In this document: positions 14,070 to 15,112 of the stretch, piece after piece
Numbering within the stretch: position 1 is the stretch's first letter
Layout of the letters: every line of letters begins with the position of its first letter
Assembly (NCBI GenBank): GCA_964016885.1
Contig: OZ024745.1
Span: forward strand, 111,104,001-111,168,000
Origin: Eledone cirrhosa
Taxonomy: Eukaryota
DNA: 64,000 nt
Reading direction: 5' to 3'
Made by a program: the position numbers and the translations under genes
The notes under the pieces: generated by a model
Databases searched by the model: none
What the model was told of the DNA's origin: nothing
What the model saw: only the letters and a program-made list of their open reading frames with translations

Positions 14070-14334
14070 GAAAAGTGTAATTTACTACACAAAACGAAGG
14101 TTATAGAGAAAATTGAGGTTGGTAATGGCACATGGAATATATAAGAGACAGAATACTTTTTTGTGAAAAAACATATAATTTTATAAGGTAAGGAAATAAT
14201 AAAGGGTATATACCCTTAATAAAGGGTATATACCCTTTATTATTTCCTTACCTTATAAAATTATATGTTTTTTCACAAAAAAGTATTCTGTCTCTTATAT
14301 ATTCCATGTGCCATTACCAACCTCAATTTTCTCT
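14070..14334. mobile_element. Asymmetric fold-back element (perfect arms of about 105 bp, 14105-14334) in (TA)n/(CT)n
   Basis: Left arm AGAGAAAATTGAGG..AAAGGGTATA is the exact reverse complement of the right arm; centre holds two copies of the palindrome AAGGGTATATACCCTT. Confidence 0.85.
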
Positions 14335-14500
14335 CTCTCTCTCTCTCTCTCTCTCTCTCTCTCTATATATATATATATATATATATATATATATATATAT
14401 ATATATATATATATATATATATATATGAGTGTTTGTGTGTGTATATATATATATATATGAGTGTGTGTGTATATATATATATATATATATATATATATAT

Positions 14501-14720
14501 AGAAGTGGTAACACAACAGTTAGTTCACCATACCGAGAACAATTGTTTCACCTTAGCAGATCTTGAGCTCGTACTGCCAGCAGTATGAGCTGAAGATCTG
14601 CGAAGGTGAAACAATTGTTCTTGGTATGGTGAACTAACTGTTGTCTTACCCGTTCTACCTAACTCGTCCCATGGACTGAGTGCTCTACCACTACGGATAT
14701 TACCTTCCAGGGTTCTACTT
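14501..14720. mobile_element. Asymmetric fold-back element with head-to-head hammerhead motifs (Penelope-like pLTR derivative)
   Basis: Arms about 14502-14577 and 14580-14656, 2-nt loop, 4 mismatches in the inner 65 bp; right arm continues about 65 bp to (TA)n. Confidence 0.8.
14586..14623 (+). ncRNA. Minimal type-I hammerhead ribozyme motif (variant)
   Basis: TGAG-CTGAAGA-TCTGCGAAGGT-GAAA-C-AATT-G-TT-CTTG; palindromic stem-III loop; the mirror copy (14534-14571, minus) has perfect stem I CGAG/CTCG but a CTCAAGA core mutation. Confidence 0.6.
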
Positions 14721-14750
14721 ATATATATATATATATGTATATATATATAT

Positions 14751-15112
14751 GTGCAGAGGTTATATTTAATTTGTTGGGATACAACAAGCTTAAAAATATT
14801 TTTATAACTGATATAAAGCACTCAACAGATTATTGGAGTAAATATACAATATATTAACAAATGGAAACTATATTTATAAAACCATATTTATTTTATTATA
14901 TATATTTCAAGGGCCACTAAGGCAAATTATGGTGCGCTTTCATCAGATAAAATACAATACAGATTAGTTTTATAAATAAATATTGACATACCCTGAAAAA
15001 AGACAACCTTAACGGTTGGAGCTTCCTGGATAGTTTGCCTTGGTGGCCATTGAAATATGTATAATAAAATAAATATGGTTTTATAAATATAGTTTCCATT
15101 TGTTAATATATT
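14751..15112. mobile_element. Asymmetric fold-back element with a hammerhead, same family as 35753-36194
   Basis: Arms 14848-14926 and 15034-15112 (about 80 bp, few mismatches); flanked by (TA)n. Confidence 0.85.
14890..14953 (-). ncRNA. Minimal type-I hammerhead ribozyme
   Basis: Minus strand ATTTTAT-CTGATGA-AAGCGCACCA..TAGTGGCCCTT-GAAA-T-ATAT-A-TA/ATAAAAT; 7-bp stem I, intact core, AUA site, imperfect stem II. Confidence 0.75.

What the first reader, a model, noticed from the sequence alone, without database searches (positions are those of the whole stretch)
14070..15112. Three unrelated fold-back elements stacked in one (TA)n tract, two carrying hammerhead ribozymes
Seen: three sequence-unrelated non-coding elements of 220-360 bp lie back to back, separated only by microsatellite. 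Each is a head-to-head inverted repeat with one arm 35-100 bp longer, and both ends run into (TA)n or (CT)n. Two contain CTGANGA..GAAA..UH folds with a palindromic four-base stem-III loop (AATT, ATAT). The same architecture recurs at 35753 and 55530. Established: Penelope-like elements (PLEs) carry minimal type-I hammerheads in their pLTRs and often insert with inverted truncated ends, and minimal hammerheads with palindromic loops can cleave as dimers. Inference: these are multiple non-autonomous, TA-targeting, ribozyme-bearing PLE families whose standard insertion product is a two-ribozyme palindrome. I do not know of this being described as a system in cephalopods, but cannot check.
Basis: partly seen in the sequence, partly recalled or inferred. 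Interest (0 to 1): 0.85.

Follow-up and report, generated by a model that had tools for sequence, protein, structure and literature searches.

The report
Fold-back Penelope retrotransposon ends with hammerheads
These short hairpin-shaped inserts are real, but they are the already-described leftover ends of Penelope-like jumping genes that land in TA repeats, and their ribozymes are probably switched off by the hairpin itself, so the finding is mostly ordinary.

Summary
Three unrelated head-to-head inverted repeats (A 14071-14334, B 14500-14722, C 14753-15115) sit in one TA tract, each with a one-sided 3' extension (34, 65, 98 nt). D (35753) belongs to C's family; E (55.5 kb) is a third, decayed hammerhead family. 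All 4 hammerhead-descriptor hits in the window lie in these elements (0.07 expected). Reads show B and C are high-copy, present in three organism labels, with a recurring tail-less end on (TA)n and compensatory stem II changes in C's family. The layout is in print as the normal Penelope-like insertion: inverted 5'-truncated pLTR plus tail, palindromic junction, hammerheads on opposite strands. A TA-targeting, hammerhead-bearing octopus element (Hydra-1_Obim) is also published. 'Two-ribozyme palindrome' overstates it: only D (1 of 5) has two intact cores, they lie on opposite strands, and the fold-back sequesters them. No ORF link was shown. Small addition: a GAGYRCT tail motif at a fixed offset in three families and in 2 of 6 published Hydra consensi. 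This scan found the same pattern before in shark-type DNA.

The parts
14071..14217 (-). Element A long arm: 113-nt arm plus 34-nt tail (14071-14104), ending on (TA)n; no hammerhead core
14196..14237 (.). Element A centre: 4-nt loop (14218-14221) between two copies of a 16-nt self-palindrome, forming a 20-nt direct repeat
14222..14334 (+). Element A short arm, tail-less, running into (CT)n then (TA)n
14335..14499 (.). Compound (CT)n/(TA)n/(TG)n microsatellite between A and B
14500..14577 (-). Element B short arm, tail-less; hammerhead core 14567-14561 has G5 changed to C (predicted dead)
14580..14722 (+). Element B long arm plus 65-nt tail (14658-14722)
14586..14623 (+). Type I minimal hammerhead of B: core 14590-14596, U.U at the base of a 2-bp stem II, GAAA 14608-14611, loop AATT, predicted cleavage after 14619 (GUU)
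   Evidence: resembles the Hydra-clade table
14678..14684 (+). Tail motif GAGYRCT of B, 20 nt past the short-arm end
14723..14752 (.). (TA)n between B and C
14753..15034 (-). Element C long arm: about 184-nt pLTR-like part plus 98-nt tail (14753-14850)
14889..14954 (-). Type I hammerhead of C: 8-bp stem I, core 14946-14940, long stem II with a C.C mismatch, loop ATAT, predicted cleavage after 14897 (AUA)
14817..14823 (-). Tail motif GAGYRCT of C, 27 nt past the short-arm end
15035..15115 (+). Element C short arm, tail-less and missing its first 109 nt (only the 3' half of the hammerhead)
35753..36194 (.). Element D, family C: long arm plus tail on - (35753-36007), 1-nt loop (36008), short arm on +; intact hammerheads at 35883-35947 (-) and 36087-36151 (+)
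55520..55851 (.). Element E, third hammerhead family, decayed; long arm on -, tail motif at 55572-55566

Best explanation
A-E are dead-on-arrival insertion products of endonuclease-positive Penelope-like retrotransposons. Each is a 5'-truncated 3' end (pLTR plus tail) joined head-to-head to an inverted, tail-less copy of the same end, inside (TA)n. B and E, and less surely C/D, look like Hydra-clade ends; A is unassigned. Proposed steps: (1) The GIY-YIG endonuclease cuts both strands of a TA repeat (shown for the anole element in vitro, PMC11167929; inferred here). (2) One cut end primes cDNA from the tail end of the RNA and stops after 100-280 nt (inferred). (3) The cDNA folds back at a short local palindrome and is copied back as far as a fixed internal site 38-48 nt past the ribozyme cleavage site, where it joins the other target end through TA microhomology. 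The fixed site is shown by the reads; the fold-back is inferred from loops of 1, 2, 4 and at most 12 nt in 4 of 5 elements and exactly one tail in 5 of 5. My odds for step 3: fold-back 50%, priming from both cut ends on two RNAs held by a protein dimer 35%, other 15%. (4) The hammerhead is a passenger from the parent pLTR, where its palindromic stem III suits cleavage as a dimer in tandem transcripts. In the fold-back product it is locked in a long duplex (computed), so read-through gives dsRNA rather than self-cleavage.
For: Both arms point outward with 3' ends on the microsatellite, as target priming requires. 4 of 4 descriptor hits in 128 kb of strand lie in the fold-backs, against a mean of 0.07 and maximum of 1 in 100 shuffles. 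(455 nt holding the long arms of B and C, 80% likeness): 10,216 contigs laid in X1, 78 in X5, 31 in X6, 39,539 raw reads in X13. Loose ends show the tail-less end meeting (TA)n: family B in 1,441 X13 reads; family C in 5,120 X13 reads, 2 X5 contigs (plus 3 at 14842) and 66+70 X1 contigs at 14851 and 14842. X13 depth is 2.1 times higher just inside C's short-arm end than in the tail (24,992 vs 12,044), as two arms and one tail predict. Stem II of family C keeps its pairs across four variants read: two-sided changes at pairs 2, 5 and 6, a one-sided change at pair 7, and the C.C mismatch at position 4 constant. Literature: PMC8557442, PMC3846280, PMC4209133, PMC11167929. B has U after A9 and U before G12, like 14 of 25 Hydra families, and A-C...G-U stem III, like 25 of 25 (my count by eye). 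The tail motif lies 58-73 nt past the cleavage site here and 65 and 57 nt past it in Hydra-2_Amil and Hydra-2_Ajap; E shares 15 identical letters there with Hydra-2_Amil (by eye).
Against: No RT or GIY-YIG sequence was linked to any arm. None was recognised in the window, the collection scans gave 0 hits, and no genome is held. Rfam lists no hammerhead among 121 and 23 matches. Isolated motifs fold no better than shuffles in 5 of 6 cases (z from +1.27 to -1.10; only D reaches -1.80). Covariation counted formally on the 4 window arms is not significant (144 of 500 shuffles). C/D have U-A at 15.2-16.2 and A-U at 10.1-11.1, unlike the Hydra table and unlike the G10.1-C11.1 rule of PMC4209133. Tails of 65-98 nt exceed the published 30-40 nt. 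A has neither core nor motif. The 9 strand-switch joints shown have offsets of 5-132 nt, so near-symmetric centres are not shown to be the family norm. The descriptor was relaxed after seeing B; the stricter one found only the 3 C/D sites.
Confidence: 0.85

Rival explanations
1. Family C/D is a true non-autonomous unit: a solo pLTR or the whole palindrome is transcribed and mobilised in trans by a PLE protein, with a fixed turn point. This can hold alongside the best explanation for the other families.
For: The long arms of C and D begin at the same base and their short arms end within about 3 nt of each other, which random truncation rarely gives. Their length (about 185 nt) matches published pLTRs of 181-218 bp, and pLTRs acting in trans are described (PMC3846280). 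Non-LTR retrozymes are argued to be non-autonomous PLE derivatives (10.64898/2026.07.22.740005).
Against: Arms within a copy share letters that differ between copies (D 166 of 166; C 82 of 87; C vs D 229 of 250), so both arms are remade at each insertion rather than inherited as a palindrome. No joint at 15034 appears among the 15 of 19 joints shown. X13 depth falls steadily towards that end (3,942 to 539 over the last 100 nt; edge effects contribute). There are no head-to-tail tandems, which retrozymes need.
Confidence: 0.2
2. The elements are MITE or foldback DNA transposons, and the hammerhead-like motifs are incidental.
For: Non-coding inverted repeats in TA; MITEs exist in octopus annotation (PMC13282606); a MITE-like element with a 312-nt spacer is in the window. 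A has no ribozyme.
Against: The termini are not symmetric (one-sided tail in 5 of 5), so both ends cannot offer the same transposase site. Hammerhead hits are confined to these elements and stem II covaries.
Confidence: 0.04
3. The palindromes are library or assembly artefacts, or are made by repair at unstable TA tracts after an ordinary single-arm insertion.
For: A's arms are 113 of 113 identical; flanking microsatellite also shows a small fold-back (13866-13928); no listed read or contig spans a whole element.
Against: B, C and E arms differ from each other (7 of 78, 5 of 87, 13 of 113), including two CpG-type changes in B. The tail-less end recurs at one position in reads of other studies (X13, X5). 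Five cases share one layout.
Confidence: 0.05
4. The paired ribozymes are functional as a system: they cleave as a dimer and process transcripts of the locus.
For: Stem III 8-mers are self-complementary (-6.4, -3.2 and -2.2 kcal/mol as dimers); D keeps both cores.
Against: The cores are on opposite strands; 4 of 5 elements lack two intact cores; the folding penalty in the whole element is 44-90 kcal/mol. Published minimal PLE hammerheads cleave poorly even as dimers (PMC4209133), and cleavage was dispensable for insertion in vitro (PMC11167929).
Confidence: 0.05

Closest known systems
Complex insertions of EN+ Penelope-like elements: inverted 5'-truncated pLTR plus tail (PMC8557442; PMC3846280; PMC11167929)
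   Same: Head-to-head inverted copy, palindrome at the junction, tail on one end only, fixed internal end, AT-rich or microsatellite target, hammerhead in the repeat.
   Different: No ORF in any of the 5 elements; tails 65-98 nt in the hammerhead families rather than 30-40; near-zero central loops in 4 of 5.
Hydra clade PLEs, including Hydra-1_Obim of Octopus bimaculoides (PMC8557442, Files S1, S2, S7)
   Same: (TA)n target; hammerhead near the 3' end; B's U.U base of stem II, A-C...G-U stem III and GUU site; tail-less ends 36-47 nt after the cleavage site in 3 of 6 consensi (38-48 here); GAGYRCT about 60 nt after it in 2 of 6; Penelope-13_HM carries an inverted truncated copy with a second, antisense hammerhead.
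   Different: None of the window families matches Hydra-1_Obim's 3' end by eye; the clade is defined by its protein, which was not found; C/D have a U-A stem III and a long stem II with a C.C mismatch.
Minimal type I hammerheads of metazoan PLEs (PMC4209133)
   Same: Conserved core, 2-bp stem III with a palindromic loop, many families per genome, mostly ORF-less, pairs on opposite strands 100-700 bp apart.
   Different: No G10.1-C11.1 pair; B's stem II is only 2 bp beyond the U.U; cleavage triplets are GUU and AUA.
Non-LTR retrozymes (PMC7229834, search listing only; 10.64898/2026.07.22.740005)
   Same: Short, non-coding, type I hammerhead, PLE-related.
   Different: Retrozymes are head-to-tail tandems giving circular RNA; these are head-to-head and hold at most one core per strand.
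Naiad PLEs of cephalopods (PMC8557442)
   Same: (TA)n target, inverted truncated copy plus tail, no canonical hammerhead (as in A).
   Different: A does not match the 3' ends of Naiad_Obim, Naiad_Ovul or Naiad_Omin by eye.

Membership tests
Penelope-like elements (EN+) | RT + GIY-YIG ORF in the parent element | not testable with these tools
   No genome held; no such ORF recognised in the window; collection scans empty; one search gave no letters beyond 15034
Penelope-like elements (EN+) | Inverted 5'-truncated copy joined head-to-head | tested here: met
   5 of 5 elements; 9 strand-switch joints among 15 shown in reads
Penelope-like elements (EN+) | Tail at one end only, with a fixed tail-less end | tested here: met
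   5 of 5; recurring loose ends onto (TA)n in X13, X1, X5; tails longer than published except in A
Penelope-like elements (EN+) | Hammerhead within the terminal repeat | tested here: met
   B, C, D intact and E decayed; absent in A
Penelope-like elements (EN+) | Interspersed high copy number with variable 5' truncation | tested here: met
   10,216 contigs in X1 and 39,539 reads in X13; depth falls towards the 5' end; tested for B and C only
Hydra clade | Protein signatures (RWK, DKT, CxCX5C linker, no CCHH) | not testable with these tools
   No ORF available
Hydra clade | (TA)n insertion preference | tested here: met
   not specific, since Naiads share it
Hydra clade | Hammerhead form as in File S2 (A-C...G-U stem III, often U.U at the base of stem II) | tested here: inconclusive
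   Met by B, not met by C/D, decayed in E; whether other clades share the form was not tested
Type I hammerhead ribozyme | Core CUGANGA / GAAA / UH with stems I-III | tested here: met
   4 sites; no Rfam model matches
Type I hammerhead ribozyme | Covariation in stems across copies | tested here: met
   Family C stem II: three two-sided changes read by eye from loose-end consensi (agreement 0.93-0.98 for one variant, 0.69 for the other); stem I shows one one-sided change; family B shows one one-sided stem II change and no two-sided change among the rows shown
Type I hammerhead ribozyme | Self-cleavage | not testable with these tools
   Needs an in vitro assay
Non-LTR retrozymes | Head-to-tail tandem units each with a hammerhead | tested here: not met
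   No tandem of these arms in the window; genome-wide not tested
MITE / foldback DNA transposon | Symmetric terminal inverted repeats reaching both ends | tested here: not met
   One-sided 34-98 nt tails

The most novel reading that the evidence does not exclude
The GAGYRCT box 19-27 nt past the tail-less end is the cis element by which Hydra-type RT-endonucleases bind RNA and set the internal end. ORF-less pLTR units with a fixed turn point use it to spread in trans as self-folding elements that silence their own ribozyme. They would then have seeded the host genome with tens of thousands of near-perfect dsRNA hairpins, a large unannotated pool of A-to-I editing and small-RNA substrates if the host is a coleoid cephalopod.
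Probability: 0.15. Interest if true: 0.55.

Novelty: new member of a known kind. Interest (0 to 1): 0.22.

Why it matters
Modestly. The elements add hammerhead families and covarying stem II variants to a known class. They give a clean in-genome picture of the unsolved second step of PLE integration: one tail per insertion, a fixed internal end and near-zero loops, which discriminate fold-back from twin priming if counted genome-wide. The tail motif is a concrete, testable candidate for protein recognition in the Hydra clade. If such hairpins are abundant in introns and UTRs they could matter for RNA editing, as inverted Alus do in humans (own knowledge), but nothing here shows that they are transcribed.

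Tried and rejected
Whole genome: none held, so no genome-wide counts and no ORF link. Rfam: no hammerhead family among 121 matches at E up to 1 or 23 at E up to 10; the miRNA hits are hairpin or microsatellite matches far below threshold. Pattern scans: 0 loci in metagenome contigs and 0 in prokaryote genomes. The read pile-ups ending at 14613, 14771 and 14925 in X13 were considered as cleavage or truncation marks and rejected: X13 is DNA RAD-seq, and all three sit at or beside AATT-like sites, so I read them as restriction ends (inference). The same bias probably explains the 14614 A>T variant. Summed contig depth was not used as copy number, as the tool warns. Absence of listed variants in core positions was not counted, because 75 rows were not shown. 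Window ORFs (82 of at least 90 aa) and a motif screen gave no PLE protein; LINE-like fragments only, by recall. A against three octopus Naiad 3' ends: no match by eye. Non-random stacking: rejected. The motif's nominal probability (1.8e-7) is post hoc and not a valid P value; its support is position plus recurrence in published consensi. Literature searches. One search (Hydra + Penelope-like + non-autonomous + hammerhead + mollusc) returned 0 papers, and I saw no mention of the tail motif in the passages and section read; subscription papers and Repbase/Dfam entries are outside these searches. Lunse 2017 (PMC5785218) was not held. Supplements of the bioRxiv preprint could not be seen; it samples vertebrates, insects and one anthozoan, so they are unlikely to hold these families. 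The earlier-finding hit by sequence (e1-2568352, 3 of 78 words) is unrelated.

Full report
Observation. The sequence and arm alignments confirm three head-to-head inverted repeats in one microsatellite tract: A (arms 113 of 113 identical, 4-nt loop, 34-nt one-sided extension), B (71 of 78, 2-nt gap, 65-nt extension) and C (82 of 87, 98-nt extension, short arm also missing its first 109 nt). A centre-out scan of the masked window returned 8 rows: A, B, C, D at 35753, E at 55.5 kb, one MITE-like element with a 312-nt spacer, and two rows inside a tandem repeat at 56.6-57.0 kb. A, B, C and E are mutually unrelated. D is a second copy of C's family (229 of 250 columns), with arms identical at 166 of 166 columns apart from one 18-nt indel and a 1-nt loop. 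Three of five in one tract is not beyond chance (P=0.21 for any TA cluster).

Ribozymes. A strict type I descriptor found 3 sites, all in C and D. Relaxed to allow a mismatch at the base of stem II, it found 4 sites in both strands of the window: B's long arm, C's long arm and both arms of D, against 0.07 on average in 100 shuffles. Rfam has no matching hammerhead model, and 5 of 6 isolated motifs fold no better than shuffles; I take that as expected for minimal hammerheads (inference), but it is no support. A has no core, B's short arm has G5 changed to C, C's short arm has only the 3' half, and E is decayed. So 1 of 5 elements has two intact cores, and they lie on opposite strands. Forcing the hammerhead fold costs 69 (B), 44 (C) and 87-90 (D) kcal/mol in the whole element against 20, 9 and 11 in the long arm alone. 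The stem III loop is ATAT in 1 of 4 C/D arms and ATGT in 3; both forms occur in reads (place 14901).

Copies elsewhere. No genome is held. One search listed 15 runs; I laid 4 on 14580-15034, which holds the long arms of B and C. Laid records: X1 10,216 contigs (organism A, possibly the window's source), X5 78 (organism B), X6 31 (organism C), X13 39,539 raw RAD reads (organism A, another study). Among the 24 loose-end rows shown (606 more not shown), the B consensus runs to the short-arm end and into (TA)n in 1,441 reads, and the C consensus does so at 14856 in 5,120 reads and 2 X5 contigs, with 66 and 70 X1 contigs nearby. X13 depth inside C's short-arm end is 2.1 times that of the tail; for B the ratio is 1.5-2.0; RAD reads come from a biased set of loci. 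Contig-summed ratios are far higher (7 to 22) and are not interpretable as copy ratios. Two further stem II variants of family C appear as loose ends (13,491 + 4,540 X13 reads and X5 contigs for one; 49 X1 contigs at agreement 0.69 for the other). Read by eye against C and D, they change both partners at pairs 2, 5 and 6, one partner at pair 7, and keep the C.C mismatch. The constant mismatch argues for RNA structure rather than DNA palindrome correction (inference). The formal count on the 4 window arms finds 1 two-sided and 1 one-sided change and is not significant. Nine of the 15 joints shown switch strand, with offsets of 5-132 nt and few reads; none is at C's own turn point. Hairpin molecules may be under-sequenced, so this neither proves nor excludes a preferred turn.

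What is known. Craig 2021 (PMC8557442; passages, section 11, supplement parts) describes the typical PLE insertion as 5'-truncated with an adjacent inverted truncated copy, a 30-40 bp tail at one end and microsatellite bias. It defines the Hydra clade as (TA)n-inserting with canonical hammerheads, and lists Hydra-1_Obim from Octopus bimaculoides. Arkhipova 2013 (PMC3846280; passages) reports abundant head-to-head repeats with palindromes at the junction, 18- and 38-bp palindromes at pLTR 5' ends (compare A's 16-nt one), self-priming as explanation, and pLTRs acting in trans. Cervera 2014 (PMC4209133; parts 1-2 of 4) reports minimal hammerheads with palindromic stem III, mostly as single truncated motifs, some paired 100-700 bp apart on opposite strands, with low activity even as dimers. 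Frangieh 2024 (PMC11167929; parts 1-2 of 4) shows both strands cut and extended at AT-rich DNA, two RT start sites bounding the tail, and cleavage dispensable for insertion in vitro. Penelope families are annotated in octopus (PMC13282606 and PMC8967140; passages). The retrozyme preprint (10.64898/2026.07.22.740005; parts 1-2 of 5) concerns head-to-tail tandems. PMC6765202 was seen as passages; Lunse 2017 only through that review.

Clade. B's hammerhead has U after A9 and U before G12 (14 of 25 Hydra families in File S2), A-C...G-U stem III (25 of 25) and a GUU site (10 of 25); these counts are mine, by eye. B, C, D and E all carry GAGYRCT 19-27 nt past the short-arm end and 58-73 nt past the predicted cleavage site (29 hits in 128 kb of strand as background). 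Of 6 Hydra consensi in File S7, 2 carry it at 65 and 57 nt, 3 end 36-47 nt after the cleavage site (like the short arms here, 38-48 nt), and 1 has a long tail without the exact motif. The motif was spotted after the fact, and other clades were not checked, so Hydra membership is a lead and not a result. C/D depart from the Hydra stem III. A matches none of three octopus Naiad ends by eye and stays unassigned.

Mechanism. The arms' 3' ends face the target, arms within a copy are closer than between copies, every element has exactly one tail (5 of 5; 0.03 if each arm chose independently at even odds), and 4 of 5 centres have loops of 12 nt or less. I favour priming at the tail end, early stop, fold-back and copying to the fixed internal site, then joining by TA microhomology (50%), over priming from both cut ends on two RNAs (35%). 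The shared long-arm start of C and D is unexplained by random truncation. It may be the pLTR's natural 5' boundary, which leaves room for a non-autonomous solo-pLTR template (20%). All enzymatic steps are inferred from other PLEs; none is shown for these families.

Verdict. Real, well supported, and an instance of a described insertion form; new families only. Two earlier reports of this scan reached the same reading on shark-type DNA; they are unchecked notes and were not counted as evidence. Interest 0.22.

Noticed in passing
window 6165-6665: MITE-like element: about 69-90 nt inverted ends (94% alike over 69 nt), 312-nt unique spacer, flanked by (TA)n; no hammerhead.
   Followed up: no
window 4639-4783, 21234-21475, 28850-29080, 42779-43011, 56599-57233, 62327-62533: A repeated family with TTAA-CCCT-like ends, tandemly amplified as 106-bp units at 56804-57122; looks like a piggyBac-type MITE (label recalled, not tested).
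   Followed up: no
window 13866-13928 and 14420-14475: A small fold-back made of microsatellite (GAGTGT... then its inverse) left of A, with direct copies of the same unit right of A; may be target duplication or TA-tract instability.
   Followed up: partly
window 14325-14364: A's short arm ends in CTCT and continues as (CT)n, as if its last letters were repeated at priming or slipped later.
   Followed up: no
window 10546-11806: Two copies of a tRNA-headed SINE-like family in inverted orientation around a 613-bp (TA)n tract; further copies at 5827, 47722, 52860, 54268.
   Followed up: no
window 7117-7815, 45168-46160, 40629-41710: LINE ORF fragments (RTE-like C-terminal ends and an L1/Tx1-like piece; labels recalled, no family scan run).
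   Followed up: no
joints 14842/14856 and 14851/14856: A few reads join two tail-less ends of family C on opposite strands, suggesting copies inserted end to end.
   Followed up: no
bins 14676-14691 and 14804-14819: Contig depth peaks locally at the tail-motif bins of both families in X1 and X5, hinting that the motif region is the best-kept part of the tail.
   Followed up: partly
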